Shown here: positions 26,272 through 46,050 of the stretch, in pieces | Position numbering within the stretch: the stretch's first letter is position 1 | Layout of the letters: the number at the start of each line of letters is the position of its first letter | From: Candidatus Geothermocultor quzhuomuensis | GTDB lineage: Bacteria > Actinomycetota > Aquicultoria > Geothermocultorales > Geothermocultoraceae | Reading direction: 5' to 3' | Assembly (NCBI GenBank): GCA_015711795.1 | Contig: JACVJC010000007.1 | Coordinates: 5,809-69,808 of the forward strand | Length of the DNA: 64,000 nt | Notes under the pieces: generated by a model | Databases searched by the model: none | What the model was told of the DNA's origin: nothing | Seen by the model: only the letters and a program-made list of their open reading frames with translations | Program-made: the position numbers and the translations under genes

Positions 26272-27954
26272 ATGGTTAGATTAAAGAAAAGATTAGGCAA
26301 AATATTAGTTGAAGCAGGATTAATAACTGAAGAGCAGTTACAAGAAGCAGTTGAAGCTCAAGATGGTAAGTCAGTCACTTCAGCTTTAATTGATTTAGGC
26401 TATGTTTCAGAAGCTGACATTGCTAAGGTTATAGCTAAGGCGACAGGCTTACCTTATGTAGATTTAAGCAAATATGAAATTAATCCTAATGCTGCTACTT
26501 TAATCTCAGAAGATATTGCTCGAAAGTATTCTGTTCTCCCCATTGATTTTGAAGATAACAAATTAGTTGTGGCTATGGCTGAGCCTGCAAATATATTTGC
26601 CATTGACGATTTAAGAATTATCACTGGTTATGAAATCAAGACAGTAGTTGCTTTAGAATCCGCAATTCAAAATGCTATAAATCAGTTTTGCCGGATGGAC
26701 CATGAAGTAGAAGAGATGACTGAGAGTGTGGCTGGTGAAGAGGAGGAAGCTGCTGTTTCAGCTACCACTGTGGAGGAAGAATATGAGGTTGAAGAAGCTC
26801 CCATTGTTAAGCTCGTTAATGTAATTATAACCGAGGCTGCCCGGAGTCGAGCTGCTGATATCCATATTGAACCTCAAGAAGGAGATATTAGAATTAGGTA
26901 TCGAATTGATGGCGTTTTACATGAGGTAATGCGTTCACCAAAGAGAGTTCAAACTGGAATGGTTGCTCGGATAAAGATTCTTGCTAACATGGATATTGCT
27001 GAAAAGCGGCTTCCTCAAGATGGCCGTTTTAGCTTAATGGTTGATGGAAAACCTATTGATTTTCGGGTTGCAACTTTACCCACTGTTTACGGGGAAAAAG
27101 TTGTTCTCAGGCTTTTGGAGAAAGAAAGCATTTTAATGCAACTAGAAGATTTAGGTTTTCTCCCTGAAAGTCTCAAGAAGTTTAAAAAGTCTTTAAATAA
27201 GCCTTATGGAGCTATTTTTGTTACTGGTCCAACTGGTTGTGGGAAGACAACAACCCTTTATGCTGGATTAAATTTGTTAAACAAAGATGAAAAGAACTTA
27301 ATTACTGTTGAAGATCCAGTTGAGTATCGCTTGCCTGGAGTAAATCAAGTTCAAGTTAACCCTAAGGCTGGTTTAACTTTTGCTTCAGCTCTTCGTTCCA
27401 TTTTGCGAAATGACCCTGATATTGTAATGATTGGTGAAATTAGGGATCAAGAAACAGCTCTCATTGCCATTGAATCTGCTTTAACAGGCCATTTAGTGCT
27501 TTCTACTCTTCACACTAATGATGCTCCATCTGCCATTACTCGTTTAACTGAGATGGGTATTGAGCCTTTTTTAACTTCATCGGCTATTGATTCAGTTGTT
27601 GCTCAAAGATTAGCTAGAAAGCTTTGTGACCAATGCAAAGAAGCTTATACTCCTTCCCTTGAATCACTTCAAAGAGTAAAATTTCCTTTAGGAGAAGGGG
27701 AAAGTTTACCTACTCTTTATCGAGCAAAGGGTTGTGATGCTTGTAATGGTACAGGTTATCGAGGCAGAGTCGGGATTTTTGAAGTAATGGAAATGAGTGA
27801 AACAATTGAGAGGTTAACTGTTGAGAGGGCATCAACAGATGAGATAAAAAAAGTAGCTATTGCTGAAGGAATGTTAACTCTCAGAGAAGAAGGGATGGAA
27901 AAAGTGAAGCAGGGGATTACTTCAATTGAAGAAATCATGAGAGTAATTGTTTAA
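26272..27954 (+). CDS. pilB: Type IV pilus assembly ATPase PilB/GspE family (paralog 1). It has a single N-terminal MshEN-type domain with a consensus c-di-GMP-binding motif.
   Basis: N-terminus RLGKILVEAGLITEEQLQEAVEAQ. It also has Walker A GPTGCGKTT, Asp and His boxes, and the tetracysteine CDQC...CDAC motif. Confidence 0.85.
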   Translation: MVRLKKRLGKILVEAGLITEEQLQEAVEAQDGKSVTSALIDLGYVSEADIAKVIAKATGLPYVDLSKYEINPNAATLISEDIARKYSVLPIDFEDNKLVVAMAEPANIFAIDDLRIITGYEIKTVVALESAIQNAINQFCRMDHEVEEMTESVAGEEEEAAVSATTVEEEYEVEEAPIVKLVNVIITEAARSRAADIHIEPQEGDIRIRYRIDGVLHEVMRSPKRVQTGMVARIKILANMDIAEKRLPQDGRFSLMVDGKPIDFRVATLPTVYGEKVVLRLLEKESILMQLEDLGFLPESLKKFKKSLNKPYGAIFVTGPTGCGKTTTLYAGLNLLNKDEKNLITVEDPVEYRLPGVNQVQVNPKAGLTFASALRSILRNDPDIVMIGEIRDQETALIAIESALTGHLVLSTLHTNDAPSAITRLTEMGIEPFLTSSAIDSVVAQRLARKLCDQCKEAYTPSLESLQRVKFPLGEGESLPTLYRAKGCDACNGTGYRGRVGIFEVMEMSETIERLTVERASTDEIKKVAIAEGMLTLREEGMEKVKQGITSIEEIMRVIV

Positions 27955-28049: not shown

Positions 28050-28715
28050 ATGGATGAGATAAAAACTGGCGATTGGGAATTTGAAGAGCCTGAAAAACCA
28101 AAATATGATGAGGGAGAATTAATTAAGTCTGACTTTGAAGAGGCTGAAGAGACTTCAGGTGTTCCTGTAGATGTTTTTGAAACGGAAGAGGAAAAAGTAA
28201 TAGAGAAGAAAAAAGAAGCAGTTAAAGAGAAAGAAACTGAAAAAGAGGGTAAGAAAATAAAGCTTGGAGATTTTGAAATTACGGCAGAAGGAGAAGGTCC
28301 AAAAGCAGAAGCTGAAAAAGTGATAGAAGAGAAATCTAAAGAAAAAGGGGAAACTTTGGAAGAAAAACTTATGGTCATATTGAGTGATTTTATTGCGCTT
28401 TCACCAAGCATTGAAGCAGCTGCTTTAGTAAGTTTGGATGGTTTAATCATGGCTTCAGCTTTACCACCTGGCGCTGAGGAAGACAGAGTTGCTGCAATGT
28501 CTGCTGCCATTTTGAGCTTAGGTGAAAAAGCAGCATCAGAGTTGGGGAGGGGAGATTTAGCTCAAGTTTTTGTTGAAGGCAATAAAGGTTATGTATTTTT
28601 AATGTCAACGGCTGGTAAGGCTGTTCTCACTTGTTTAGCTGGGAAGGAAGCTAAGATTGGATTAGTCTTCTATGATATGAAAAAAATTGCTCATCAGTTG
28701 GGGGAAATATTGTAA
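28050..28715 (+). CDS. Roadblock/LC7 (MglB-like) domain protein with an acidic N-terminal extension of about 100 aa
   Basis: The C-terminal roughly 110 aa match the Roadblock/LC7 fold pattern (IEAAALVSLDGLIMAS....VFVEGNKGYVFL..AG.AVL). The N-terminus is an E/K-rich low-complexity region. Confidence 0.62.
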   Translation: MDEIKTGDWEFEEPEKPKYDEGELIKSDFEEAEETSGVPVDVFETEEEKVIEKKKEAVKEKETEKEGKKIKLGDFEITAEGEGPKAEAEKVIEEKSKEKGETLEEKLMVILSDFIALSPSIEAAALVSLDGLIMASALPPGAEEDRVAAMSAAILSLGEKAASELGRGDLAQVFVEGNKGYVFLMSTAGKAVLTCLAGKEAKIGLVFYDMKKIAHQLGEIL

Positions 28716-28731
28716 TTTAAGAGGTTAAGAG

Positions 28732-29934
28732 ATGGCTCTTAAAGGAAATTTAAAAGATTTCAATCTAGCTGATATTTTTCAGTTAATTACATTGAGTAAG
28801 AAAAAGGGAGCCTTGGTTATCGAGAGCTCTGAGGGAAAAGGATCAATTTATTTTAAGGATGGGGGGATATATTTTGCTTCAACCCCTTGGAGTGAAAAAT
28901 CATGGCTTCAAAAGTTACTAACTTCTCAAAAGGTTTCTAATGAAGAGCGGGAGAGAATTTTGAAGGATAAGGAAAAGGACACTTCAAAGAAGGTGGGAAC
29001 CGCTTTAGTTGAAAAAGGTATATTTTCCTTAGAAGAACTCCAAAGTTTTCTTGTCAATCAAATTGCTGATGCTATTTTTGATCTATTTACTTGGAAAGAA
29101 GGTGATTTTAATTTTGAAGGGGATCAAGAAAGAGATGATGAGGATTTGGGGATAGTTGCTGACTCTTCAAAGGTTATTTCGGAGGTAAATGCTCGCCTAG
29201 ATGAATGGAAGAAGATAAAGAAGATAATTCCTAGCTTGAAGATGTATTTTAAAATAAGTTCATCTCCCGGTGAGGGAGATAAAGACATTAGCTTAAAACC
29301 TAAGGAATGGAAAGTTATTAGTGGTTTGGATGGGAGAAAAGATATAAGCACAGTTTCTAAGGAAGTTGGTTTGAGTGAGTTTGAAACTTGTAAGATACTC
29401 TCTGATGTTTATTCTAAAGGTTTAATTGAGGTTGCAGAACCGCCAGTAGCTGAAGTGGTCGAAAAGGAAAAAAAGGAAGAAGTTATTTCTTTAGAAGAGG
29501 TTAGGGAGGAAAAAAAGGAAGAAGTTATTGAGGAGAAAAAAGAGGAAGTAAAAGAAGGACTTCCTGTTGAAGAAATAAAACCTGAAGAAGCTGAAAGGAA
29601 AGAAGCAGTTGCTGAGGAAATTAAGAAGAAGGCGGACCAAGTAGTTGAGGAGATTACAGCTAAGATTACTGAGCAGATTCTCGGAGCAAAGAAAGAAAAA
29701 GTTAAAGGAGGCAAGCCGAAAGTTGATGTGGAGGTGGAGAGCAAAGGAGAAGTTCCTGTTGAGGAACTTGAAGAGATGCTTGAGGAGCTAACATCTTTAA
29801 CCGAAGTGGCACCACCTGAATCTTCTTCTGAATTGGAAGAAGCGACTAAGGTTGAAGAGGAGGGTACTTCTTTAGATAAAGGAATCACAAGGGAGCTTGT
29901 TTTAAAAATTATTAAAGGGATCAAAAGATTATAG
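28732..29934 (+). CDS. DUF4388 (PATAN-like) domain protein with a long Glu/Lys-rich repetitive C-terminal tail
   Basis: The N-terminus LKGNLKDFNLADIFQLITLSKKKGALVIESSEGKGSIYFKDGGIYFA fits the DUF4388 signature. The C-terminal half is EEKKEEV-type low complexity. Confidence 0.55.
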   Translation: MALKGNLKDFNLADIFQLITLSKKKGALVIESSEGKGSIYFKDGGIYFASTPWSEKSWLQKLLTSQKVSNEERERILKDKEKDTSKKVGTALVEKGIFSLEELQSFLVNQIADAIFDLFTWKEGDFNFEGDQERDDEDLGIVADSSKVISEVNARLDEWKKIKKIIPSLKMYFKISSSPGEGDKDISLKPKEWKVISGLDGRKDISTVSKEVGLSEFETCKILSDVYSKGLIEVAEPPVAEVVEKEKKEEVISLEEVREEKKEEVIEEKKEEVKEGLPVEEIKPEEAERKEAVAEEIKKKADQVVEEITAKITEQILGAKKEKVKGGKPKVDVEVESKGEVPVEELEEMLEELTSLTEVAPPESSSELEEATKVEEEGTSLDKGITRELVLKIIKGIKRL

Positions 29935-29943
29935 GAGGGTAAA

Positions 29944-30501
29944 TTGCGCTCGGTAAAGGTAGTGGTTACAGGTCCTTTTGCAGCTGGGAAAACAACATTT
30001 ATTCGAACAATCAGTGAGATAACAGTTCTTTCTACTGAAAGAGCGGTTTCAGACTCGAGTAAAGAGGTAAAAAGGGAGACAACTGTTGCTATGGACTTTG
30101 GTCGAATTACAGTCGATGACGATGTGGCTCTCTATCTTTTTGGAACCCCAGGTCAGGAACGTTTCAGTTTTATGTGGGAAACTCTTTCCAAGGGAATGCT
30201 CGGCTTTATTGTCTTAGTTGATTACTCAACCCCTGAGGGTGTTGCAGAATCACAAAAAATTTTAAATTATTTTAAGACTCTTTCCAGAGTTCCTTATGTT
30301 GTGGCAGTGACTAAGTTTGATGGAGCAGTTACTCCTCAGCTCCTTGAGGAGATTAGAGCTGGTCTCAGCATAAAAAGCAGTGTTCCTATCTATTCTTGCG
30401 ATGCTAGAAATAAAGAGGATGTTAAAGAAGTTCTCTTAGGATTGATGCATAAAGTTTTAGAGGTAGTCGATAGGAGAGAAAAGCAAGCTACTTCTTATTA
30501 A
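29944..30501 (+). CDS. Ras-like small GTPase of the MglA/CvnD (COG2229-like) family
   Basis: G1 GPFAAGKTT, switch I TTVAMDFG, non-canonical G3 FGTPGQERF, G4-like VTKFD, and G5-like YSCDA. It has a TTG start after AGGAGGG. Confidence 0.65.
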   Translation: MRSVKVVVTGPFAAGKTTFIRTISEITVLSTERAVSDSSKEVKRETTVAMDFGRITVDDDVALYLFGTPGQERFSFMWETLSKGMLGFIVLVDYSTPEGVAESQKILNYFKTLSRVPYVVAVTKFDGAVTPQLLEEIRAGLSIKSSVPIYSCDARNKEDVKEVLLGLMHKVLEVVDRREKQATSY

Positions 30502-30509
30502 AAATTCTT

Positions 30510-30728
30510 ATGAAAACTTTTTATAAGATATTAATTTCTCTTGGTTTAATTGGTCTAATTGCTCTTTGGTTCAAAAAGGGTAAAAGAAAATCTGAGCCAA
30601 AGAAGGTGGAATTATATTTTAATGATGGAAGCAAGCTAGAGGTGGGTGAGGATTCACCATATTATAGTGATTTTACCAGTATGGCTGATGAAATTTTTGA
30701 ATTATCCACTAAAGAAGGGGACGAATAA
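30510..30728 (+). CDS. Small single-transmembrane-helix protein (hypothetical)
   Basis: A 72-aa ORF with one hydrophobic helix. It lies tightly between the GTPase gene and pilB2. Confidence 0.3.
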   Translation: MKTFYKILISLGLIGLIALWFKKGKRKSEPKKVELYFNDGSKLEVGEDSPYYSDFTSMADEIFELSTKEGDE

Positions 30729-32741
30729 GTGGCAAAAAAAGATTTGGCCAGTTTACTTAAGGAATCTAATTTAATCAGTGACGAACAGCTTCAGGAGGCA
30801 ATAGAAATTCAAAAGAAATCTGGTCTTCCTTTAGGCAGGGCTTTAGTTTACCTTGGCTATGTTAGTCAGAGGGACCTTATTTCAAAGATTGCTGAACAAT
30901 TAGGTTTAACATTTGTCGATTTTTCAACGGAAAAAATTGAAAAAAGGGCAGTTCAACTTATTCCAGAAGAGCTATGTCGAAAATTTCTAGTTTTCCCAGT
31001 AAAGATTCGTGACAACAAACTTTTAGTTGCGATGACTAACCCTAAGGATGTTATAGCGTTAGAAGAGTTGAAATCTCTTAGTGGGTATGAAATTGAGCCA
31101 GCTGTTTCAACTAGGGAGGATATTTTAGCTGCAATTAATCGATATTTTAAAGAGGGTGCTTTTGAGGAAGAGCTAACCAGCCTCTTGGAAGAAACAGAGA
31201 GAGAAGCTAGCTTAAAGGAGCTGGGAAAAACTTTTGAAACGGTTGAAGAAGTTGATTTAAGTAATTATTCAATTGACCCTAATGCAGTTATGACTATTTC
31301 TGAAGATTTAGCTCGCAAACATAAAATAATCCCTCTAGGCTTTGATGATAATCTTCTTCTTGTGGCTATGGCTAATCCAAGAGATATTTTTCTCCTTGAT
31401 AACTTGAGGATTTCTAGTGGGTATGACATTAAACCTTTTAAAGCTAGCGAGGAAGATATTTTAAATTCAATTAATCGCTATTATAAGATGGCAGAAGTTG
31501 TCGGAGTTGAAGAAGAACTGGAAAGTTTCTTTGCTGAGATAGGCAAAGAGGCTGATTTAACAAAGGTAAAAGAAGTAGTTGAAGATGCTCCTATTGTTAA
31601 GTTAGTTAATTTGATTATTACCAGAGCGGTTAGGGAGAGAGCAAGTGATATTCATATAGAGCCTCAAGAAAAAGATTTGAGAATAAGGTATCGCATTGAT
31701 GGGGTGCTTCATGAAGTTATGAGGTCACCGAAGCGCATTCAAGCTGGCATTTTATCTCGTTTAAAAATTATGGCAAGTATGGATATTGCTGAACGGAGAA
31801 AACCTCAAGATGGTCATTGTGCCTTAATGGTTGGTGGTAAAGCTATTGATTTTCGAGTGGCTACCTTACCAACCATTTATGGTGAGAGAGTTGTTTTGCG
31901 AGTTTTGGCAAAAGAAAGCATTTTATTAAGGCTTGAAGACCTTGGTTTCTTACCTGAGAGTTTAGAGAGGTATACCTCTGCATATACTTTACCTTATGGT
32001 GCCATTTTAATTACTGGTCCAACTGGTTCTGGTAAGTCAACAACTCTTTATGCTACTTTAAATGTTTTAAATACACCCGAGAAAAACATTGTTACCATTG
32101 AAGATCCTGTTGAGTATCGTCTTTCAGGGATAAATCAAGTTCAGATTAACCCCAAAGCTGGTTTGACTTTTGCCCGAGGGTTAAGGTCGATTTTAAGAAC
32201 CTCTCCTGATATTGTTATGGTTGGTGAGATTCGAGACCAAGAAACAGCTCAAATTGCCATTGAGGCTGCTTTAACTGGTCACCTTGTTTTATCAACCCTT
32301 CATACTAATGACGCGCCTAGTGCCATCTCTCGACTTATTGAAATGGGGATTGAACCTTTTTTAGTTGCTTCAGCAGTTGACTGTGTTCAAGCTCAAAGAT
32401 TGGCAAGAAGGCTTTGTAATGAGTGTAAAGAGCCATATACTCCTTCCAGAAAAGCTTTGGAGGAAATTGGTTTTCCTTTGGAAGATGATGAGGTTCCTAC
32501 TTTATATCGGGCAAAAGGTTGTCCTAAATGTGGTAATACTGGTTATAAGGGTCGAGTTGGGATTTATGAGGTTATGTTGGTTAGCGAAACCATTGAGCGC
32601 TTAGCAGTGGAAAAGGCTACAGCGGAGCAGATAAAGAAAGTGGCGATTGAAGAAGGGATGTTTACATTAAGACGAGATGGTTTTGAGAAGGTTAGAAAAG
32701 GGATAACTTCAATTGAGGAGGTTTTAAGGGTAGTAGTCTAA
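30729..32741 (+). CDS. pilB: Type IV pilus assembly ATPase PilB/GspE family (paralog 2), with two tandem N-terminal GSPII_E_N/MshEN-like domains whose c-di-GMP motif is degenerate
   Basis: Duplicated N-terminal domains (residues about 1-140 and 175-250), Walker A GPTGSGKST, and tetracysteine CNEC...CPKC. It has a GTG start. Confidence 0.85.
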   Translation: MAKKDLASLLKESNLISDEQLQEAIEIQKKSGLPLGRALVYLGYVSQRDLISKIAEQLGLTFVDFSTEKIEKRAVQLIPEELCRKFLVFPVKIRDNKLLVAMTNPKDVIALEELKSLSGYEIEPAVSTREDILAAINRYFKEGAFEEELTSLLEETEREASLKELGKTFETVEEVDLSNYSIDPNAVMTISEDLARKHKIIPLGFDDNLLLVAMANPRDIFLLDNLRISSGYDIKPFKASEEDILNSINRYYKMAEVVGVEEELESFFAEIGKEADLTKVKEVVEDAPIVKLVNLIITRAVRERASDIHIEPQEKDLRIRYRIDGVLHEVMRSPKRIQAGILSRLKIMASMDIAERRKPQDGHCALMVGGKAIDFRVATLPTIYGERVVLRVLAKESILLRLEDLGFLPESLERYTSAYTLPYGAILITGPTGSGKSTTLYATLNVLNTPEKNIVTIEDPVEYRLSGINQVQINPKAGLTFARGLRSILRTSPDIVMVGEIRDQETAQIAIEAALTGHLVLSTLHTNDAPSAISRLIEMGIEPFLVASAVDCVQAQRLARRLCNECKEPYTPSRKALEEIGFPLEDDEVPTLYRAKGCPKCGNTGYKGRVGIYEVMLVSETIERLAVEKATAEQIKKVAIEEGMFTLRRDGFEKVRKGITSIEEVLRVVV

Positions 32742-32780: not shown

Positions 32781-33854
32781 GTGATTGATTTAAATCAGCT
32801 TTTACTCGAAATGATTGATAAAGGAGCATCAGATCTTCACATAACAGTTGGTGCCCCTCCAGTAATTAGACTACATGGACGCTTAGAACCTTTAGATTAT
32901 CCCAAGTTAATGCCACAGGATACCAAGGAAATGATTTATGGAATCTTAACTCAAGAGCAAAGAGAACAGGTAGAGAGAAACTGGGAGTATGATTTTTCTC
33001 ATTCTCTTCCTGGCAAAGGCCGTTTTAGAGTTAATATTTTTTTCCAAAGAGGGAGCTTAGCTGCTGCTTTTCGTTTGATACCAGTCAGAATTCCAACCCT
33101 TGAGGAATTAGGGCTTCCTCCTGTTTTAGTTGAATTTACCCGCAAACCTCGGGGTTTTGTTTTGGTTACAGGACCAACTGGCGCTGGTAAATCTACAACT
33201 TTAGCTGCTTTAATTAATATTATTAATGAAACTCGAAGTGAGCACATTATTACTATTGAAGATCCGGTTGAATTTCTCCATACTCACAAAAAATCAATTG
33301 TTAATCAACGAGAAATTGCATCAGATACAAAATCTTTTGCTAGTGCCTTAAAATATGTCTTGAGGCAAGACCCTGATGTTATTTTAATTGGAGAGATGAG
33401 AGACATTGAAACCATTTCTGCTGCCTTAACAGCGGCTGAAACTGGTCATCTTGTTTTTACTACTTTGCATACTCAAGATGCCCCCCAAACTATAGACCGA
33501 ATTATTGATGTTTTTCCACCTTATCAACAGCAGCAAATTAGAATTCAGCTGGCTGGGACCCTTCAGGGGATAATCTCTCAACAACTCCTTCCTACTCGAG
33601 ATGGTAGGGGTAGAGTTGTAGCTGTTGAAGTTCTTATTCCAACTCCGGGTATTCGCAATATGATTAGAGAAGCAAAAGTTCACCAAATTTACACCGCAAT
33701 GCAAACAGGAGGAAAACACGGGATGCAAACGATGGACCAAGCCTTGGCATCGTTAGTAAAAAGAGGTAAAATAACATATGATTTAGCAATTCAAAGGGCA
33801 ATTGACCCTCAAGACTTAAAAACTCTTTTAAGACAATCAGGGGTGGTGATTTAA
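32781..33854 (+). CDS. pilT: Twitching-motility (retraction) ATPase PilT
   Basis: Walker A GPTGAGKSTT and the PilT-specific motif GIRNMIREAKVHQI...GMQTMDQAL. Confidence 0.85.
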   Translation: MIDLNQLLLEMIDKGASDLHITVGAPPVIRLHGRLEPLDYPKLMPQDTKEMIYGILTQEQREQVERNWEYDFSHSLPGKGRFRVNIFFQRGSLAAAFRLIPVRIPTLEELGLPPVLVEFTRKPRGFVLVTGPTGAGKSTTLAALINIINETRSEHIITIEDPVEFLHTHKKSIVNQREIASDTKSFASALKYVLRQDPDVILIGEMRDIETISAALTAAETGHLVFTTLHTQDAPQTIDRIIDVFPPYQQQQIRIQLAGTLQGIISQQLLPTRDGRGRVVAVEVLIPTPGIRNMIREAKVHQIYTAMQTGGKHGMQTMDQALASLVKRGKITYDLAIQRAIDPQDLKTLLRQSGVVI

Positions 33855-35066
33855 ATGCCAGCAACCTTTGTTTATAAAGTAAGAGACCGAACAGGTAAAA
33901 TTATTAGTGGTGCCATTGAGGCTGACAGTCAAATTGCTGTTGCCTCGAAACTAAGGAGCATGGGTTATATTGTTGTTAATATTAGTGAGAAGAAGGAAGG
34001 TCTTTCCTTTTCTTTACCTGTTAAAAGGAAGGTTAAAGCCAAAGATTTAACTGTTTTTGCCCGACAATTCGCTACGATGATTAATTCAGGTGTTTCTATA
34101 ACTAAGTCGCTTTCTATTTTAGCTGATCAAACTGAGAGCCAAGCTTTAGCCAATATTGTTCTTCAGCTTCAAAAAGATGTTGAAGGGGGACTTTCCCTCT
34201 CGGAAGCTTTATCAAAGCATAGCAAGATTTTCCCTCCTCTTTTTATTAATATGGTTAGAGCTGGTGAGGCTGGTGGTGTTTTAGATGAAGTGCTTTTAAG
34301 AATTGCTGAGCATTTTGAAAAAGAGCAGGGTTTAAAGTCAAGAATTAAATCTGCTTTAGCTTATCCTGTGGCTATCTTTAGTTTCTCAGTCGTTTTAGTT
34401 TTCATTATGATTACCTTCATTGTCCCTATTTTTGTTGGGATGTTTGCCACTTTAGGTGGAGAGTTACCTTTACCAACCAAGATACTCTTAGCAATGAGTA
34501 ATTTCATTCGGGGAATTGGTGGACTTTTCTTGTTGGGTGGAGTTATTGGTTTTATTTTTGGTTACCGCAGTTTCACTGCTACAGAGAAAGGGAGATTCCT
34601 TGTTGATAAAGTTAAGTTGCACTTACCGGTTTTTGGTTCATTGACTCAAAAAATGGCTATTGCTAAATTTACTCGAACTTTTGGTACTTTAATCTCAAGT
34701 GGTGTTCCTATTCTCCAAGCCTTAGACATTGTCGCTGATACTGCTGAAAATGCAGTCGTTACTAAATCAGTCAGGGAAGCCCGAGCTAGCATAAAGGAAG
34801 GGGAAACTATTTCAGCTCCTCTTTCTTCAAGTGGGGTTTTCCCTCCCATGGTTGTTCAAATGATTGCAGTTGGAGAAGAAACTGGAGCTCTAGACTCAAT
34901 GCTTAAAAAGATTGCTGACTTTTATGATGAAGAAGTTTCATCAACGGTTGATACCTTAACTTCCCTTATTGAACCTTTTATGATGCTTTTCCTTGGTTTA
35001 ACCATTGGAGGCATTGTTATTTCTCTTTACATGCCAATGTTCAAAGTCGTCACCTTAATTAAATAA
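33855..35066 (+). CDS. pilC: Type IV pilus platform protein PilC (GspF family)
   Basis: Two GspF repeats separated by transmembrane helices, 403 aa. Confidence 0.85.
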   Translation: MPATFVYKVRDRTGKIISGAIEADSQIAVASKLRSMGYIVVNISEKKEGLSFSLPVKRKVKAKDLTVFARQFATMINSGVSITKSLSILADQTESQALANIVLQLQKDVEGGLSLSEALSKHSKIFPPLFINMVRAGEAGGVLDEVLLRIAEHFEKEQGLKSRIKSALAYPVAIFSFSVVLVFIMITFIVPIFVGMFATLGGELPLPTKILLAMSNFIRGIGGLFLLGGVIGFIFGYRSFTATEKGRFLVDKVKLHLPVFGSLTQKMAIAKFTRTFGTLISSGVPILQALDIVADTAENAVVTKSVREARASIKEGETISAPLSSSGVFPPMVVQMIAVGEETGALDSMLKKIADFYDEEVSSTVDTLTSLIEPFMMLFLGLTIGGIVISLYMPMFKVVTLIK

Positions 35067-35226: not shown

Positions 35227-35637
35227 ATGTTTAAGCATGAAGAAGGTTTTACCTTAATTGAGTTGATGGTTGTCGTCCTTATTATCGCTATTTTAGTTGC
35301 TATCGCTGTGCCTGTCTTTAATGCTGCTCGTCAAAATGCTTGGAAGAGAACTTGTCAAGCAAACTTAAGAACAATTGATGGACAAATTCAAGCTTACTGG
35401 GCTGAATATGAAGCATTTCCGGCTGGTTTTAATGGTGTTGCTGTTCTTACTAGTAATCATGCTTTAGTAACTGCTCAATATATTAGGACTGCCCCTCAGT
35501 GCCCAAGAAGTAAAGCGGAAGGAGATATAGCTAATTCCTATTACACAATTGGTAATTCTACAGCTGGAGATTTAGTTTCTGGAGCGACACCTCAATCCTT
35601 CTGTGTTAAATACAATGCTCAAGGCCACTCCTATTAA
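35227..35637 (+). CDS. pilA: Type IV pilin (probable major pilin, paralog 1)
   Basis: Class III signal MFKHEEG^FTLIELMVVVLIIAILVAIAVP. A strong Shine-Dalgarno AGGAGGTG lies upstream, and a strong intrinsic terminator follows immediately downstream. Confidence 0.75.
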   Translation: MFKHEEGFTLIELMVVVLIIAILVAIAVPVFNAARQNAWKRTCQANLRTIDGQIQAYWAEYEAFPAGFNGVAVLTSNHALVTAQYIRTAPQCPRSKAEGDIANSYYTIGNSTAGDLVSGATPQSFCVKYNAQGHSY

Positions 35638-35654
35638 AGTGTTCTTCAAGCAAA

Positions 35655-35680
35655 GGGCGGTCTAAGAGACCGCCCTTTTT
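35655..35680 (+). terminator. Rho-independent terminator: GGGCGGTCT-aag-AGACCGCCC followed by TTTTT
   Basis: A perfect 9-bp GC-rich stem, 3-nt loop and T-run, immediately after the pilA1 stop. Confidence 0.7.
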
Positions 35681-35691
35681 ACTTTAATCTT

Positions 35692-35707
35692 TGGCATTTA
35701 GCTTGCC
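35692..35707 (+). promoter_or_regulatory. Candidate sigma54 (-24/-12) promoter: TGGCAT-ttagc-TTGCC
   Basis: It matches the TGGCAC-N5-TTGCW consensus at all key positions: GG at -24, GC at -12, and correct spacing. It lies between the pilA1 terminator and the second pilin gene. Confidence 0.4.
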
Positions 35708-35742
35708 AGTTAAATCACTCCCTGCCTTAGTTTATTTACAAA

Positions 35743-36216
35743 ATGAAGAAGAAAATATATATTTCTTTTATGTTTAAATTTCAAGAAGGTTTTACCTTAA
35801 TTGAGTTGATGGTTGTCGTCCTTATTATCGCCATTTTAGTTGCTATTGCTGTTCCTGTCTTTAATGCGGTTAAGGAAGGGGCTTGGAAAAGAACTTGTCA
35901 AGCAAACTTAAGGATAATTGATGGTCAAATTCAAGCTTATTCAGCTGAGACGGAATACTTACTTCCAGCTAATTTTCAAGGTTTGCGGGTTCTTAATTTA
36001 AACCATCCTTTAATTACTGGTCAATACCTTAAGTCGGTTCCTTTATGTCCACGGACAAAGGCGGAAGGAGATGTGACAAATGCTTTTTACTCAATTGGTG
36101 ATTCCTATGACGGAACAAATGGAATGGTAGGAACAGTTACTAATGCTTCTAGTGGACGAGAAGCTTCTGCTTTTTGTACTTTATATAATCCTTCTCATAG
36201 GTATCGAGGCGAGTAA
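35743..36216 (+). CDS. Type IV pilin paralog 2
   Basis: MFKFQEG^FTLIELMVVVLIIAILVAIAVP is nearly identical to the paralog 1 N-terminus. The start is probably ATG at 35770, giving a 7-aa leader as in paralog 1. Confidence 0.65.
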   Translation: MKKKIYISFMFKFQEGFTLIELMVVVLIIAILVAIAVPVFNAVKEGAWKRTCQANLRIIDGQIQAYSAETEYLLPANFQGLRVLNLNHPLITGQYLKSVPLCPRTKAEGDVTNAFYSIGDSYDGTNGMVGTVTNASSGREASAFCTLYNPSHRYRGE

Positions 36217-36443: not shown

Positions 36444-36803
36444 ATGCTTTTTAGAGAAAAGGGCTTCACTTTAATTGAGATTATGGTAGTGGTGCTAATT
36501 TTTGGATTTTTACTGGCCATAGCTATTCCCTTTTATGCTACTTTAAGTTCCTCCGTTAAGAAAAATGCCTGCTACGCTAATTTACAGGTTCTCGATAACA
36601 CACTGGCTCGTTATAACATTGACAAGGGAAGTTATCCTCCCTTGGCTGATGGTTCACCTTTAACTGATTTTGAACCTTATTTTGTTCCTGAATATTTAAA
36701 GAGGCTTCCCTCCTGTCCTCAAGGTGGAGATTATACTTATCATCTTCTTGGAACCAATGCTTACTTTTCATGCTCAATTCATGGCAACCTTCCCAAGAAG
36801 TGA
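36444..36803 (+). CDS. Type IV pilin-like protein, paralog 3
   Basis: MLFREKG^FTLIEIMVVVLIFGFLLAIAIP prepilin signal, followed by a short globular domain with two Cys. Confidence 0.6.
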   Translation: MLFREKGFTLIEIMVVVLIFGFLLAIAIPFYATLSSSVKKNACYANLQVLDNTLARYNIDKGSYPPLADGSPLTDFEPYFVPEYLKRLPSCPQGGDYTYHLLGTNAYFSCSIHGNLPKK

Positions 36804-37596: not shown

Positions 37597-37737
37597 TCCC
37601 CTAAAGGAAAAACCTTTTTCTGACGATAATATATAGGAAACAGTGAACAGGATTAAGGTTAAGAGCTTTGAAGAAAGAAATGTCAATTTCAAAATTTTTT
37701 TAAGCGATATGGTAAAATAAAAAAGGTGGTTAAGTTG

Positions 37738-39183
37738 ATGATAGTTTCAAGAGAAAAGGGTATGACCTTATTAGAGATTGTTTTTGCTTTCTTTGTTTTA
37801 GCTCTGGTTTTGGTTTCTTTAATTGGAGTTATGGGGGTAGCAACTAGGCTGATTAGAGAAAGCAAACTTGAAACCATAGCTACTGCCATTGCTAATGAAG
37901 AGATTGAACGAATTCGCACTCTTCCTTATGGGCAGGTGGGGCTTCTTTCACCTCCTAGCCCTGATGTTCCAACTGGAACCTTGCCGGAGACAACCCAAGT
38001 AACAAGGATGGGAGTAACTTTTACAGTTGCTTATGATATTCGGTGGGTCGATGATGCTTATGACGGTTTGGGAGAAGAGGACAAAACTAGACCTGGTGAA
38101 GGAAAGGGACAAGATTATAAAATATTAAAAGTTACTGTTAGTTGGCAATCAGGGGGAAAAACCTCATCAGTTAGGGTATCATCTTATATTCGGGAAATTC
38201 CTCGAACTAATCGTCGCCCCTTTGTCAAATATCAAGACCTAGCTCCAAGTGCTGGTTCAGTTGTTTGGGATCAAGGGGAAGGAGTTAGCATTCCACTTTA
38301 TGCTCTAGATTATGATGGATATATTTCTACAGTTCGCTACTCAATTGATGGTTACTATCCCCCTGGTTCTTCCTACAGTTATTCCAGTCCAGAGGTTAAT
38401 CACATCTTTATTTGGAATACCTATTATATTCCAACTGGCTCGACTACACCTTTTAAAGATGGAGCTAGGAAAGTAATAATTGAAGCTTGGGACAACTCAG
38501 GGGGTCAAGATAGAAAGGAAAGGATTTGGTGTCTTGATAACTATCCACCAGAAACCCCAACTGGTTTAGAAACATCAGAAACAGCAATTACAACAGAGAC
38601 TATTCCTCTCTTTTGGACAGCTTCTTGGGATGCAACCACTCCTGGTTGGGCTACTATTCATGCTTATTCTTACTTAATTTATCAAAGTAGAAATGGCAGT
38701 CCCTTTAGCCAAGTTGGGGCAGTGACTGCTACAGGGGAGTTACCATACATTATGGATAATTGTCCCACTACCTATACTGATAAAAATTTAACCCCCTTTA
38801 CTTATTATGGTTATTATTTAGTGGCAAAAAGTCCTAGAGGACTTACTTCTTCAGCTTCAGCCATTCTTACTACCAAAACTAGAATAAGAGCTTGGGTTTC
38901 GGGTATTATTTCATCCGGCGTAAAGAGGCAACTTGTTTTCAGCTGGGAAGGTCCAACTTTTACTTCAGATTCAACTTATACCCTTGAGCGGTCAACAAGT
39001 TCTAGCGGACCCTGGACTCAAGATGCTGGTCCGACTACATTATTAACCCTTACTGGAAGCCAAATTACAAAGAATGATACCTATTATTACCGAGTTAAGG
39101 CAAAATATCTATATGGTGTTGTTTCAGATACAAATATTAGCAACCTTATCTTGTTTGATCGAGACACAATTTCATATCCATAG
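37738..39183 (+). CDS. Minor pilin (PilV-like) with a large C-terminal beta-rich domain (fibronectin-III-like)
   Basis: Prepilin-like leader MIVSREKG^MTLLEIVFAFFVLALV with an ATG at 37738 after AAAGGTGG. The C-terminal domain of more than 400 aa is T/S/Y-rich. Confidence 0.55.
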   Translation: MIVSREKGMTLLEIVFAFFVLALVLVSLIGVMGVATRLIRESKLETIATAIANEEIERIRTLPYGQVGLLSPPSPDVPTGTLPETTQVTRMGVTFTVAYDIRWVDDAYDGLGEEDKTRPGEGKGQDYKILKVTVSWQSGGKTSSVRVSSYIREIPRTNRRPFVKYQDLAPSAGSVVWDQGEGVSIPLYALDYDGYISTVRYSIDGYYPPGSSYSYSSPEVNHIFIWNTYYIPTGSTTPFKDGARKVIIEAWDNSGGQDRKERIWCLDNYPPETPTGLETSETAITTETIPLFWTASWDATTPGWATIHAYSYLIYQSRNGSPFSQVGAVTATGELPYIMDNCPTTYTDKNLTPFTYYGYYLVAKSPRGLTSSASAILTTKTRIRAWVSGIISSGVKRQLVFSWEGPTFTSDSTYTLERSTSSSGPWTQDAGPTTLLTLTGSQITKNDTYYYRVKAKYLYGVVSDTNISNLILFDRDTISYP

Positions 39184-39193
39184 GTGATTTAAG

Positions 39194-39760
39194 ATGATAA
39201 AGGAAGAAAAAGGTTTTACTTTAGTAGAGCTGCTTTGGGTCATTTCTTTAATCGTCATTTTATTAGTTTCAACTTATTACATTTTTGAAGGTGGCTTAAC
39301 TCTTAATCAAGTCGTTGGTGACCAGTCAAAAGTTCAAACAGAAGCAAGGGCTTCTCTTGAGCGGATGGCAAAATATTTAAGGGGTGCTACTTTATGGGGA
39401 GCAGGAGATTATGAGATTACATTTCGATGTGATGTGGATGACGATTTGATGGGAGAAGATACCACCTTTACCTTATCAGGGACAAGGCTCATCCTTAAAA
39501 TTGAAGAAATGAATGATGTGCCAATGAGAGATATCACTCTAGCAACTTATGTTCGAAATCGTGAGCAAGGTGTTCCCATTTTTACTTATTATGGGGAATC
39601 AACTGGGACACTCGGTCCTCAGTTAATTGAAAACCCAGAAGAGGAGTATAGTAACGTTCGGATGATTCACATTAAATTGATTGTTGATGTTGATCCCACT
39701 AGGAAGCCAGGTCCTTACACTGTAGAAACCGATGTTAAGCTAAGAAATTTTGAGATTTAA
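39194..39760 (+). CDS. Minor pilin (PilW-like)
   Basis: MIKEEKG^FTLVELLWVISLIVILL class III signal. Confidence 0.55.
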   Translation: MIKEEKGFTLVELLWVISLIVILLVSTYYIFEGGLTLNQVVGDQSKVQTEARASLERMAKYLRGATLWGAGDYEITFRCDVDDDLMGEDTTFTLSGTRLILKIEEMNDVPMRDITLATYVRNREQGVPIFTYYGESTGTLGPQLIENPEEEYSNVRMIHIKLIVDVDPTRKPGPYTVETDVKLRNFEI

Positions 39761-41304: not shown

Positions 41305-41544
41305 GATATGGTGAGCAGCCCAGCTTCTCTTGTGGAAGGATATTGGGGGCCAAATAGTAAGATTTTATTCCTTTCCCTTTCTCTCTACCATAGGTAAGCT
41401 TTTGAGAAGAGAAAAGGGGAAAGAATTACTTCCTGGTTTGTATGCTCAACCTAGAAACTTCAGTTTGATATTATAAAGAGGAGCAAAAAATATTTAAAAA
41501 ATACTTTAAAAATTTATAGAAAACTAGTAAAATAAGAAGAAGGG

Positions 41545-41573
41545 ATTGTCAAAAGGTCAGATATATGGTTTAA
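41545..41573 (+). promoter_or_regulatory. Candidate sigma70 promoter for pilMNO: -35 TTGTCA, 17-nt spacer, extended -10 TGgTTTAAT
   Basis: Read from the sequence, about 75 nt upstream of the pilM TTG start. AGGAGG lies 9 nt before the start codon. Confidence 0.35.
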
Positions 41574-41647
41574 TAGAGCCCAAGGTAATATTAATTTTAG
41601 CAAAAAAAATGAATTTAGTCGTAGTTTTTAAGTAGGAGGAAAAATTT

Positions 41648-42772: not shown

Positions 42773-43314
42773 TGGCAGCAAGAATAAATCTCCTTCCCCC
42801 TGAAATAATCGAAAAAAGGCAGTCAGAGAAGAGATTAGCTGTTCTCCTTTTGGTAGTAAGTTTATATATTTTAATGCTGGTTGGGATTTATCTCTTAATG
42901 CAAGTGAAGATTTTTCAAGAATCACAGGTTTTAATGCAAAGGAGAGCCCATAATACTAAACTAAATCAAAAAATCGCTGAATTTGAGGTTTTTAAAAGGA
43001 GAAAAGAAGAGGCTCAAAAGAGGGAAGAAATAATTAATAAAGCTTTAAGCGGAGAAAAGTCGTGGTACCGACTTTTGCTTAAATTAAGCATTATTATCCC
43101 TGGAGAAGTAAACATTACTAGTTTTTCCGGTGATGAAATAGCTGGGTTAACCTTTTCGGGTCAAGCTCTAGGCTATAATTCTTTAGTTAAGTGGTTAGTT
43201 CGATTAAGTGAGATTAAAGAATTAAGTGAGATTTGGTTGGGAAGTGCTTCTAAATCGGTGGTGGGAACGACTGAAATAGTTAATTACTCAATTACGACTA
43301 AGTTTAGTCAATAA
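42772..43314 (+). CDS. pilN: Type IV pilus assembly protein PilN
   Basis: INLLPPEI N-terminus, a single transmembrane helix, and a periplasmic/extracellular domain. It overlaps the pilM stop. Confidence 0.65.
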   Translation: MAARINLLPPEIIEKRQSEKRLAVLLLVVSLYILMLVGIYLLMQVKIFQESQVLMQRRAHNTKLNQKIAEFEVFKRRKEEAQKREEIINKALSGEKSWYRLLLKLSIIIPGEVNITSFSGDEIAGLTFSGQALGYNSLVKWLVRLSEIKELSEIWLGSASKSVVGTTEIVNYSITTKFSQ

Positions 43315-43351
43315 ATTAAAAGCTAGTCCTGCCTCGCCTTCTAGGATTGGA

Positions 43352-43972: not shown

Positions 43973-43986
43973 AAAGGGGAAAATAA

Positions 43987-46049: not shown

Positions 46050-46050
46050 G

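What the first reader, a model, noticed from the sequence alone, without database searches (positions are those of the whole stretch)
28050..30728. MglB-like Roadblock + DUF4388/PATAN-like + MglA/Ras-like GTPase module wedged between duplicated PilB ATPases
Three consecutive genes, plus a 72-aa single-transmembrane-helix ORF, sit exactly between the two pilB paralogs inside an otherwise canonical type IV pilus locus. (1) The Roadblock/LC7 protein carries an unusual acidic/Lys-rich N-terminal extension of about 100 aa. (2) The second protein has a DUF4388-type N-domain, followed by roughly 250 aa of EEKKEEV-like low complexity. (3) The small GTPase has G1 GPFAAGKTT but a non-canonical G3 (FGTPGQ, with no Asp) and G4 (TKFD rather than NKxD), as seen in MglA/CvnD-like GTPases. 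In established work, MglA GTPase with its Roadblock GAP MglB sets the polarity of type IV pilus extension and retraction (Myxococcus, Thermus), and Roadblock plus a GTPase are conservon components. A three-part GTPase/Roadblock/DUF4388 cassette physically embedded between the extension ATPases, in a secretin-less pilus locus, suggests a dedicated and possibly uncharacterised GTPase switch that picks which PilB engages the platform or localises it.
Basis: partly seen in the sequence, partly recalled or inferred. Interest (0 to 1): 0.72.

Follow-up and report, generated by a model that had tools for sequence, protein, structure and literature searches.

The report
Pilus-operon GTPase switch module in actinomycetes
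A conserved four-gene cassette (Roadblock protein, PATAN adaptor, small GTPase, small membrane protein) sits inside the type IV pilus motor operon of many uncultured Actinomycetota, most likely acts as a nucleotide-driven switch on the pilus assembly ATPase, and did not turn up in the literature searched here.

Summary
Between two intact PilB genes lie a Roadblock protein (Pfam E 3.5e-18), a PATAN/DUF4388 protein (4.6e-30), a small GTPase (ATP_bind_1, 4.3e-20) and a 72-aa membrane protein, all tightly spaced.

The parts are conservon-like (CvnB/CvnD type), not MglB/MglA proper. The PATAN "low-complexity tail" actually holds a winged helix and conserved helices. The 72-aa ORF is a real fourth member.

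The window comes from a deep-branching, low-GC uncultured actinomycete. In actinomycete-type loci with enough flank, the cassette was next to pilB in 25 of 25. All 9 close GTPase relatives looked up were also beside pilB. These span Coriobacteriia, Solincola/Geothermincola types, Nanopelagicales and a Dermatophilaceae MAG. Several of these have only one PilB, so choosing between two PilBs cannot be the general role. Anaerolineae keep only a PATAN–GTPase pair, away from pilB.

Best reading, by inference: the GTPase, tuned by the Roadblock protein, controls a PATAN adaptor that binds PilB or PilC, as PATAN domains do in Synechocystis. I found no paper describing this module.

Verdict: a new variant of a known kind, of moderate to high interest. 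No biochemistry supports it yet, and conserved synteny is weak evidence here because the functionally unrelated aro genes share it.

The parts
26272..27954 (+). PilB1, type IV pilus extension ATPase (560 aa, one MshEN-type N-domain). It is the upstream paralog.
   Evidence: TIGR02538 scores 686 bits against a cutoff of 675.65, with T2SSE and MshEN Pfam hits. Upstream PilBs from the window's lineage and from Coriobacteriia form one clade.
28050..28715 (+). Roadblock/LC7 protein (221 aa), CvnB-like. The Roadblock domain is residues ~112-221 (28383-28712). The N-terminal extension is about 105 aa and E/K-rich.
   Evidence: Pfam Robl_LC7 E 3.5e-18. PDB matches are 7f8m at 4e-28, cvnB5 3leq at 2e-9 and MglB at about 0.1. 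GAAGGAGG lies 10 nt before the ATG.
28050..28094 (+). Conserved extreme N-terminal motif of the Roadblock protein (MDEIKTGDWEFEEPE). It is a candidate tethered binding peptide, followed by a variable disordered linker.
   Evidence: The window's lineage has IKTGDWE[FY]EE and Coriobacteriia loci have GIGDYF[IV]xDxDDE. The linker varies in length and composition.
28732..29934 (+). PATAN (DUF4388) plus winged-helix adaptor protein (400 aa) with a partly disordered acidic tail.
   Evidence: Pfam DUF4388 E 4.6e-30. The AF2 model has pLDDT about 90 for residues 1-240. At least 594 relatives were found in reference genomes.
28903..29088 (+). Four-helix 'alpha-clip' insertion in the PATAN domain (residues 58-119). 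Its second hairpin resembles the 24-residue MshEN repeat found in PilB N-termini.
   Evidence: Helices 58-64, 70-82, 88-94 and 100-119 appear in the model. A relaxed motif matches 50 of 88 proteins, a strict motif 0 of 88, and no Pfam MshEN hit was listed. The resemblance was already noted in the literature.
29299..29436 (+). Winged helix-turn-helix module of the PATAN protein (residues ~190-235).
   Evidence: The AF2 model shows helices 190-197, 205-212 and 216-228 plus strand 232-235 at high confidence. Relatives give weak TrmB, MarR_2 and HTH_27 hits and no DUF742 hit.
29884..29931 (+). Conserved C-terminal amphipathic helix of the PATAN protein (ITRELVLKIIKGIKRL-COOH). It is a candidate GTPase- or partner-binding element.
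   Evidence: The consensus L(V/L)xK(I/L)I(D/E/K)GI(K/E)xL sits at the very C-terminus in about 73 of 75 family members by eye (a strict regex matched 44 of 75). This includes the short Anaerolineae proteins that are paired only with the GTPase.
29944..30501 (+). Small Ras-superfamily GTPase (185 aa) of the CvnD/COG2229 type. G1 is at 29971-29994 (GPFAAGKT), G3 at 30139-30156 (FGTPGQ) and G4 at 30310-30321 (TKFD). The G5-like motif is CDAR.
   Evidence: Pfam ATP_bind_1 4.3e-20 and Ras 1e-7. There are thousands of relatives at about 60% identity. G1, switch I and G3 are invariant in 74 sequences. The fold matches Sec4, Ras and MglA equally well. AGGAGG precedes the TTG start.
30510..30728 (+). 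Bitopic membrane protein (72 aa). The TM helix is residues 7-21 (30528-30572), followed by a basic stretch and a conserved C-terminal motif at residues 33-63 (30606-30698, VELYFNDGSKLEVGEDSPYYSDFTSMADEIF).
   Evidence: A gene with an N-terminal TM helix, a variable linker and a C-terminal VELxF.dG...vgV..G..y..F...A..L motif follows the GTPase in nearly all two-PilB loci, and also in a Nanopelagicales locus. Its stop codon abuts the PilB2 start.
30729..32741 (+). PilB2, type IV pilus extension ATPase (670 aa, two MshEN-type N-domains). It is the downstream paralog and groups with the single PilB of one-PilB genomes.
   Evidence: TIGR02538 scores 710 bits, with MshEN matched in two stretches. 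It is 66% identical to PilB1 and has an extra N-terminal repeat. Tree.
32781..35066 (+). PilT retraction ATPase (32781-33854) and PilC platform protein (33855-35066). These are probable co-transcribed targets or context.
   Evidence: Pfam T2SSE and T2SSF hits. No strong terminator-like site lies on the + strand before 35652.

Best explanation

Proposed mechanism:
1. The small GTPase (CvnD-like, with a catalytic Gln in FGTPGQ) cycles between GTP- and GDP-bound states.
2. The Roadblock protein, presumably a dimer as in MglB and CvnB, serves as its platform and as a GAP and/or GEF. Its N-terminal acidic peptide motif and the bitopic membrane protein may tether the complex at the membrane beside the pilus machine.
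3. The PATAN plus winged-helix protein is the effector or adaptor. Its conserved C-terminal helix or winged helix reads the state of the GTPase, and its PATAN domain contacts the N-terminal domain of PilB and/or the cytoplasmic domain of PilC.
4. The output is switching pilus extension on or off, or placing it in the cell.

In the window's sub-lineage an extra PilB paralog (PilB1) and the membrane protein have been added, so the module may also bias use of PilB1 versus PilB2 there.

Shown here: gene content, domain identities, operon-like spacing, conservation of the cassette and of its short motifs, and its repeated linkage to pilB.

Inferred: every protein-protein contact, the GAP/GEF role, and the effect on pili.
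For: Operon layout:
- Gaps between genes are 0-16 nt from the Roadblock gene to PilB2, with good Shine-Dalgarno sites.
- No strong terminator-like site lies between aroE and the first pilin.

Synteny:
- The same PilB-Robl-PATAN-GTPase-TM-PilB-PilT-PilC order is found in the nearest relatives and in about 45 Coriobacteriia-type loci.
- 3xRobl-PATAN-GTPase-aroE-PilB-PilT-PilC is found in Solincola/Geothermincola types.
- aroE-Robl-PATAN-GTPase...PilB-PilT-PilC is found in Nanopelagicales.
- Of loci with enough flank, 25 of 25 actinomycete-type loci are linked to pilB.
- All 9 close GTPase homologs looked up are pilus-linked.

Conserved short motifs imply specific partners: the Roadblock N-terminal motif, the PATAN C-terminal helix and the TM-protein C-terminal motif.

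Precedents from the literature:
- The PATAN domain of Synechocystis PixE binds PilB1, PatA-type regulators also bind the PilC N-terminus, and the PATAN domain alone reverses phototaxis (bioRxiv 10.1101/2021.06.11.447907).
- MglA/MglB and SofG position PilB and PilT in Myxococcus, and conservon proteins interact in ways that depend on kinase and GTPase activity (PMC4316618).
- mglA- and mglB-like genes recur next to PATAN genes.
Against: - There is no experimental or co-folding evidence for any contact.
- Conserved synteny is weak evidence here. The functionally unrelated aro genes are equally conserved neighbours of these pil genes: aroE lies upstream and aroC-aroK-aroB downstream.
- In Anaerolineae the PATAN-GTPase pair lies among unrelated genes, with no PilB within 10 kb. 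So the pair is not intrinsically tied to pili.
- The PATAN protein has no REC domain, unlike the studied PatA-type regulators.
- The winged helix could mean DNA binding.
- The census loci were chosen by similarity to the PATAN protein (the best 80 of at least 594), so more distant contexts went unsampled.
Confidence: 0.55

Rival explanations
1. PilB selector. The GTPase module decides which of the two extension ATPases, PilB1 or PilB2, docks on the PilC platform. This would give two pilus modes, for example motility versus DNA uptake or adhesion.
For: The cassette lies exactly between two intact, anciently diverged PilB paralogs (66% identical, differing in the number of N-domains) in the window and in about 45 related loci. 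The TM protein co-occurs with the two-PilB layout. PATAN binds the PilB N-terminal region in Synechocystis.
Against: The same Robl-PATAN-GTPase cassette occurs with a single PilB in Solincola/Geothermincola-type and Nanopelagicales genomes. Selection between paralogs can therefore only be a lineage-specific elaboration. There is no evidence that the PATAN protein discriminates between the two N-domains.
Confidence: 0.15
2. A reduced conservon-type signalling module with no pilus function. On this view it is a CvnB/CvnD-like pair plus an adaptor that regulates something else, such as development or stress responses, and it stays next to the pil genes only through inherited gene order.
For: The Roadblock protein and the GTPase are CvnB/CvnD-like. 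The aro genes show that unrelated genes can stay syntenic with pil genes. The PATAN-GTPase pairs of Anaerolineae are not next to pil genes.
Against: The cassette keeps its link to pilB through at least three different rearrangements: between two PilBs, upstream of aroE-PilB, and downstream of aroE. Gene spacing is tight and operon-like, including a stop codon that abuts the PilB2 start. PATAN has an experimentally shown link to PilB and PilC elsewhere.
Confidence: 0.15
3. GTPase-controlled transcription factor. The winged helix of the PATAN protein binds DNA and regulates pil operon transcription, with the GTPase and Roadblock protein modulating it.
For: A confidently modelled winged helix follows the PATAN domain. 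Relatives give weak MarR, TrmB and HTH_27 hits. Wuichet and Sogaard-Andersen proposed a transcriptional output for Group 3 MglA systems that have a REC-like plus wHTH partner.
Against: All HTH hits fall below the Pfam thresholds. Han et al. argue that PatA-type regulators are membrane-localised and unlikely to bind DNA. The long acidic tail and the associated membrane protein fit a machine-associated adaptor better.
Confidence: 0.1

Closest known systems
MglA/MglB polarity module of Myxococcus xanthus and Thermus thermophilus (Group 1 MglA sensu Wuichet & Sogaard-Andersen 2015)
   Same: A small Ras-like GTPase lacking the G3 aspartate is paired with an adjacent Roadblock/LC7 protein. The module is functionally tied to type IV pili and sometimes neighbours PATAN genes. 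The MglA-MglB complex structures give the highest TM-score (0.70-0.71) and identity (25-26%) to the GTPase model.
   Different: G3 is GTPGQ, not TxxGQ. There is no conserved arginine finger. The Roadblock domain matches MglB only at E about 0.1, against 1e-9 for CvnB types. The genes lie inside the pilus motor operon of a probably monoderm organism. An obligatory PATAN-wHTH partner and a membrane protein are added. No RomR/RomX-type partners are seen.
Streptomyces/Mycobacterium conservon (CvnA-CvnB-CvnC-CvnD; MfpB system), 'Group 2 MglA'
   Same: Both are found in Actinomycetota. The Roadblock protein is CvnB-like (3leq, Rv3364c). The GTPase is ATP_bind_1/COG2229-type, sources name it 'ATP/GTP-binding protein', and it has the DAR-type G5 motif. 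Gene order is Roadblock, middle protein, GTPase.
   Different: There is no CvnA histidine kinase. The middle protein is PATAN plus wHTH, not DUF742. G4 here keeps the Lys and Asp (TKFD). The module is embedded in a pilus operon, and a small bitopic protein stands where a membrane sensor might be expected.
Cyanobacterial PatA-type PATAN response regulators (PixE, PixG, LsiR, TaxP1; HmpA)
   Same: A PATAN/DUF4388 domain with a four-helix alpha-clip insertion. In Synechocystis this domain binds PilB1 and PilC and is sufficient to redirect pilus-based motility.
   Different: There is no REC domain and no chemotaxis-like input. Input is presumably the adjacent GTPase and Roadblock pair. There is an extra winged helix, an acidic tail and a conserved C-terminal helix. 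The organism is an actinomycete, not a cyanobacterium.
Eukaryotic and archaeal Roadblock-GTPase platforms (Ragulator-Rag, Asgard RB proteins)
   Same: A Roadblock-fold protein is encoded next to a small GTPase and is presumed to act as its platform. The PATAN model's best, non-significant fold hits are GATOR1 subunits.
   Different: The relationship is remote, there is no significant structural match for the PATAN protein, and the cellular process differs.

Membership tests
MglA proper (Group 1 MglA) | Ras-like small GTPase fold with P-loop, switch I Thr and a catalytic Gln in G3 | tested here: met
   GPFAAGKT, ETTVAMDF and TPGQ are present and invariant in 74 relatives. The AF2 model matches Sec4, Ras and MglA at E about 1e-10.
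MglA proper (Group 1 MglA) | G3 motif TxxGQ, with Thr replacing the canonical Asp | tested here: not met
   The window has G-T-P-G-Q. Gly67 aligns with MglA Thr78. The result agrees with the group descriptions in PMC4316618.
MglA proper (Group 1 MglA) | Intrinsic arginine finger in switch I (MglA Arg53) | tested here: not met
   BLASTP aligns Arg53 with window Arg44, but that position is E, G, A or P in relatives. It is not conserved.
MglA proper (Group 1 MglA) | Cognate MglB-type Roadblock GAP | tested here: inconclusive
   An adjacent Roadblock protein is present, but it matches MglB only at E 0.14-0.21 against 2e-9 for cvnB5. GAP activity is not testable here.
Conservon (CvnABCD) | CvnA membrane histidine kinase encoded in the cassette | tested here: not met
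   No kinase lies between aroE and PilC. The neighbours are PilB1 and a 72-aa TM protein. None was called in the related loci whose genes were Pfam-annotated.
Conservon (CvnABCD) | CvnB Roadblock/LC7 protein | tested here: met
   Robl_LC7 E 3.5e-18. PDB matches are cvnB5 3leq at 2.3e-9 and Rv3364c at 8.7e-10.
Conservon (CvnABCD) | CvnC DUF742 protein | tested here: not met
   The middle protein hits only DUF4388. No DUF742 hit appears for the whole protein or for the wHTH segment, even at E up to 10, and none is listed among the families shown for 19 relatives.
Conservon (CvnABCD) | CvnD-type GTPase (ATP_bind_1/COG2229, Asp-less G3, DAR G5) | tested here: met
   Best Pfam hit is ATP_bind_1 at 4.3e-20. 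FGTPGQ and CDAR are present. Sources name relatives 'ATP/GTP-binding protein'. No authentic conservon CvnD sequence was available for a direct tree.
PatA-type PATAN regulators | PATAN (DUF4388) domain with alpha-clip insertion | tested here: met
   DUF4388 E 4.6e-30, with profile positions 1-122 spread over residues 4-160. The model shows a four-helix insertion at 58-119.
PatA-type PATAN regulators | C-terminal REC (CheY-like) receiver domain | tested here: not met
   No Response_reg hit. The C-terminus is a wHTH plus an acidic tail.
PatA-type PATAN regulators | Binding of the PATAN domain to PilB and/or PilC | not testable with these tools
   Supported only by gene adjacency here. Shown experimentally for Synechocystis proteins.
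Type IVa pilus extension ATPase PilB (flanking genes) | TIGR02538 equivalog score above the cutoff, with Walker A and tetracysteine motifs | tested here: met
   Scores are 686.4 and 710.2 bits against a cutoff of 675.65. GPTGCGKTT and GPTGSGKST, plus the CxxC...CxxC motifs, are visible in the translations.

The most novel reading that the evidence does not exclude
The cassette is an Actinomycetota-wide, previously unrecognised regulator of the Gram-positive type IV pilus motor. In it, a CvnD-type GTPase gates PilB through a PATAN adaptor. It would also represent the evolutionary bridge, possibly the ancestral form, between the MglA/MglB polarity modules of diderm bacteria and the multi-copy conservons of Streptomyces. 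That would give the enigmatic conservon family its first concrete molecular output.
Probability: 0.3. Interest if true: 0.78.

Novelty: new variant of a known kind. Interest (0 to 1): 0.6.

Why it matters
How monoderm bacteria control where and when type IV pili are built is largely unknown. The well-studied regulators (MglA/MglB, Chp/Pil-Chp, PatA-type regulators) all come from diderm bacteria.

Here the regulator is written into the motor operon itself, with one GTPase, one Roadblock protein, one PATAN adaptor and one membrane anchor. That makes a minimal and directly testable system.

It also ties together three separate literatures: MglAB polarity, Streptomyces conservons and cyanobacterial PATAN regulators. 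It suggests that PATAN-to-PilB coupling is ancient and general.

The lineages involved (Nanopelagicales, Coriobacteriia and other uncultured Actinomycetota) are recovered from many environmental metagenomes, so the control of their pili could be of ecological interest.

Tried and rejected
1. c-di-GMP binding by the PATAN alpha-clip. The second hairpin looks like the 24-residue MshEN motif. However, a strict motif matched 0 of 88 proteins, a relaxed one 50 of 88, and no Pfam MshEN hit was listed for 19 relatives (only the first 25 of 40 families were shown). The resemblance is already in the literature. I kept it as a note, not a claim.

2. Equating the middle protein with CvnC. There is no DUF742 signal, even at E up to 10.

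3. A solved structural homolog for the PATAN protein. Foldseek against PDB gave nothing significant; the best E was 0.09, on a GATOR1 subunit.

4. Identity of PDB 7f8m, which shares many identical positions with this Roadblock domain (E 4e-28). No paper was found, and the Asgard Roadblock paper lists other codes.

5. Naming the organism from cluster metadata. No names are attached. Taxonomy was inferred from AlaRS neighbours only.

6. A prior description of the module. Seven literature searches found none. The library lacks most subscription journals, so absence is not proof.

7. Using the Anaerolineae context to find a shared non-pilus partner. The neighbours are unrelated: LysM, TPR, a hydrolase and V4R.

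8. Multimer prediction of GTPase-Roadblock-PATAN-PilB complexes was not possible with the single-chain tool.


Full report
**Observation**

On the + strand, between two PilB genes (26272-27954 and 30729-32741), lie four tightly packed ORFs.
- 28050-28715 (221 aa) has a Roadblock/LC7 domain at residues 114-197 (Pfam E 3.5e-18).
- 28732-29934 (400 aa) has a DUF4388/PATAN domain at residues 4-160 (E 4.6e-30).
- 29944-30501 (185 aa) is a small GTPase whose best Pfam match is ATP_bind_1 (4.3e-20), followed by Ras, EF-Tu and Arf.
- 30510-30728 (72 aa) has no family match.

Both flanking genes pass the PilB equivalog cutoff, with 686 and 710 bits against 675.65. They are 66% identical, and PilB2 carries an extra N-terminal MshEN-type repeat. 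Gaps between genes from the Roadblock gene to PilB2 are 0-16 nt. Strong Shine-Dalgarno sites precede the Roadblock and GTPase starts. No strong terminator-like site occurs on the + strand until after the first pilin gene at 35652. PilT, PilC, three pilins, the prepilin peptidase and PilM/N/O follow. None of the ten ORFs scanned downstream of pilD (37726-47639) is a secretin, and the whole pilus cluster is nested between aroE and aroC-aroK-aroB.

**Corrections to the description**

The PATAN protein is not a domain followed by 250 aa of low complexity. An AlphaFold model built on 20 sequences is confident (pLDDT about 90) for residues 1-240. It shows the beta-rich PATAN core, a four-helix alpha-clip insertion at 58-119, and a winged helix at about 190-235. 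The tail is mostly disordered but contains three helices. Alignments show that these helices are conserved. In particular, the very C-terminal helix (ITRELVLKIIKGIKRL here, consensus L(V/L)xK(I/L)I(D/E/K)GI(K/E)xL-COOH) is visible in about 73 of 75 family members.

The Roadblock N-terminal extension is genuine. It starts with a conserved aromatic-acidic motif: IKTGDWEFEE in the window's lineage and GIGDYFIxDxDDE in Coriobacteriia. [quoted passage not shown]

The 72-aa ORF is a real gene. A protein with an N-terminal TM helix, a linker bringing its total length to 72-534 aa, and a conserved C-terminal motif (VELxF.dG...vgV..G..y..F...A..L) follows the GTPase in nearly all two-PilB loci. It also appears in a Nanopelagicales locus.

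**What the parts are**

The Roadblock domain matches conservon-type structures (cvnB5 3leq at E 2e-9, Rv3364c at 9e-10) far better than MglB (E about 0.1). It is very close to an undescribed PDB entry, 7f8m, at 4e-28.

The GTPase has thousands of relatives at about 60% identity, which sources name 'ATP/GTP-binding protein'. Across 74 family members, G1 (TGPFxAGKT), switch I (ETTVAMDFGRIT) and G3 (LYLFGTPGQxRF) are essentially invariant, whereas G4 drifts through TKFD, NKVD, TRMP, NRAS and NKQD. FGTPGQ is therefore a family hallmark. TKFD fits the accepted [NT]KxD consensus.

By sequence profile the family is about as far from Rab/Sec4 (1e-9) as from MglA (5e-6). By fold, Sec4, Ras and MglA all match at about 1e-10, and the MglA-MglB complexes give the highest TM-score among the listed hits at 0.70-0.71. 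The catalytic Gln is kept. The Arg that aligns with MglA's arginine finger is not conserved in the family.

In the scheme of Wuichet and Sogaard-Andersen, this places the GTPase in the broad MglA family, near Group 2 (CvnD) or Group 5, and not in Group 1. The middle protein is not CvnC, since it gives no DUF742 signal. No histidine kinase is present. The cassette is therefore neither a canonical conservon nor a canonical MglAB pair.

**Organism**

The window's AlaRS is at most 58% identical to anything in the database. Its named neighbours are nearly all uncultured Actinomycetota: Aquicultor, Geothermincolales, Solincola and Coriobacteriia/Anaerosomatales. GC content is 34-39%. The source is therefore a deep-branching, low-GC actinomycete. 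Actinomycetota are typically monoderm (general knowledge), which would explain the missing secretin.

**Comparative genomics**

Nine close GTPase homologs were looked up, and all nine lie beside PilB genes. A scan of species-representative genomes with a PATAN alignment found at least 594 relatives, and the best 80 were fetched. I classified their genes by phmmer using the window's proteins. Three architectures emerged.
- (A) aroE-PilB1-Robl-PATAN-GTPase-TM-PilB2-(PilT)-PilC-PilD. This is the window's layout, seen in about 45 Coriobacteriia-type loci.
- (B) 3xRobl-long PATAN-GTPase-aroE-PilB-PilT-PilC, seen in Solincola/Geothermincola types.
- (C) A short PATAN-GTPase pair in Anaerolineae, with no PilB within 10 kb.

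Nanopelagicales show a fourth layout: aroE-Robl-PATAN-GTPase-X ... PilB-PilT-PilC. Among loci with enough flank, 25 of 25 actinomycete-type loci are linked to pilB, against 0 of 12 Anaerolineae loci. The Anaerolineae neighbours are unrelated genes.

A neighbour-joining tree of the PilB ATPase cores (no bootstrap, midpoint-rooted) puts all upstream PilBs in one clade and all downstream PilBs in another. The single PilBs of architectures B and Nanopelagicales fall on the downstream side. The duplication is therefore old, and PilB1 appears to be the added copy. The layout wedged between two PilBs is a derived form of a more general rule: the cassette sits at the head of the pilB-pilT-pilC operon.

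**Mechanism (inference)**

Three published facts frame the reading.
1. The PATAN domain of Synechocystis PixE binds PilB1, PatA-type regulators also bind the PilC N-terminus, and the domain alone reverses phototaxis. The authors also note that the alpha-clip resembles repeats at the PilB N-terminus, and that mglA- and mglB-like genes often neighbour PATAN genes.
2. MglA/MglB and SofG sort PilB and PilT in Myxococcus.
3. Conservon proteins interact in ways that depend on kinase and GTPase activity.

The most economical model is a nucleotide-driven switch. The Roadblock dimer tunes the GTPase, and the GTPase state is read by the PATAN-wHTH adaptor. The adaptor's C-terminal helix is the best candidate reader, because it is conserved even where the GTPase is the only conserved neighbour. 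The PATAN domain then acts on PilB and/or PilC. The membrane protein and the Roadblock N-terminal peptide would tether or localise the complex. I put this at about 0.55.

**Rival readings**

- A conservon-like module unrelated to pili could be retained by synteny inertia. This is a real caveat, because the aro genes are equally faithful neighbours of these pil genes.
- The module could be a GTPase-controlled winged-helix transcription factor.

**Novelty**

The gene-neighbourhood association of PATAN with MglA/MglB-like genes has been known since 2006 and 2015, and PATAN-PilB binding since 2021. None of the seven literature searches turned up the following:
- a conserved, operon-embedded Roadblock/PATAN-wHTH/CvnD-type GTPase/TM cassette in the type IV pilus loci of Actinomycetota;
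- its three architectures;
- its conserved short motifs.

The search library omits most subscription journals. I rate the finding as a new variant of a known kind, with interest 0.6. The components and the logic are familiar. The combination, the host phylum and the direct wiring into the motor operon are not, and they make a long-standing question directly testable: how monoderm bacteria regulate type IV pili, and what conservon-type GTPases act on.

**Limits**

- No interaction was tested, because the structure tool handles single chains only.
- The census is biased towards the closest PATAN relatives.
- Genes were classified by similarity to the window's own proteins.
- The PilB tree has no support values.
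- The comparison of MglA catalytic residues rests on a sequence recalled from memory.

Noticed in passing
window 25382-47639: The entire pilus cluster (pilB1 ... pilT, pilC, pilins, pilD, pilMNO) is nested inside the shikimate-pathway genes, with aroE upstream and aroC-aroK-aroB downstream. aroE-pilB adjacency is also conserved in nearly all related actinomycete loci. It shows that conserved synteny around pil genes need not mean shared function.
   Followed up: partly
window 26272-26440 and 30729-30900: Both PilB paralogs hit the NCBIfam MshE-related c-di-GMP-binding motif model (NF053729, E 2.8e-13 and 4.4e-14; cutoff 38 bits, scores 49 and 52). Both motors may therefore be c-di-GMP receptors. 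PilB2 also has a second MshEN-type N-domain.
   Followed up: no
window 28990-29064 (PATAN residues 87-110): KVGTALVEKGIFSLEELQSFLVNQ resembles the 24-residue MshEN c-di-GMP-binding repeat. Relatives have RLGQILVDEGYISEQVLETFVQEQ. A relaxed motif is found in 50 of 88 proteins and a strict one in none, and no Pfam MshEN hit was listed. Whether PATAN alpha-clips bind c-di-GMP or mimic the PilB N-terminus is open.
   Followed up: partly
window 28383-28712: The Roadblock domain matches PDB entry 7f8m ('Robl_LC7 domain-containing protein', 120 aa) at E 4e-28, with many identical positions. I could find no publication or source organism for that entry. It may be a solved ortholog of this cassette's Roadblock protein.
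   Followed up: partly
window 35227-36216: Two tandem pilin paralogs share near-identical N-terminal halves (FTLIELMVVVLIIAILVAIAVPVFNA...). A third pilin-like gene lies at 36444-36803. The strongest terminator-like hairpin in the region (35652-35678) follows the first pilin.
   Followed up: no
window 37726-39183 and 39760-41304: Two large ORFs (485 and 514 aa) lie between pilD and pilM and give no Pfam hit. The first begins with a pilin-like hydrophobic N-terminus. They may be large minor pilins or tip adhesins.
   Followed up: no
L052-L062, L007, L008 (e.g. L007:2967-7985): In Solincola/Geothermincola-type genomes the cassette has three tandem Roadblock genes and a PATAN protein of 1,100-1,470 aa, and it lacks the TM protein. 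G4 of their GTPase is TRMP or TRIG, with no Asp, which hints at relaxed nucleotide specificity.
   Followed up: partly
P0131, P0134-P0139 (alignment A1): More distant PATAN relatives, from Acidobacteria and other phyla, fuse PATAN plus wHTH to a TM segment and a C-terminal T2SSG (pseudopilin-like) domain (Pfam PF08334, 5 of 19 members). This is another architecture linking PATAN to type II secretion or type IV pilus machinery.
   Followed up: no
L077:12199-12831: In an Anaerolineae locus, a V4R-domain protein lies about 0.8 kb downstream of the PATAN-GTPase pair. V4R is the bacterial relative of TRAPPC3, a component of eukaryotic GTPase-regulating complexes. This is probably coincidental.
   Followed up: no
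L005, L022, L026-L028, L030, L039, L044, L047, L050, L051, L064: Many Coriobacteriia-type two-PilB loci have no PilT between PilB2 and PilC, while others do (L010, L012, L016, L020, L031, L040, L049). I did not check whether PilT lies elsewhere in those genomes.
   Followed up: no
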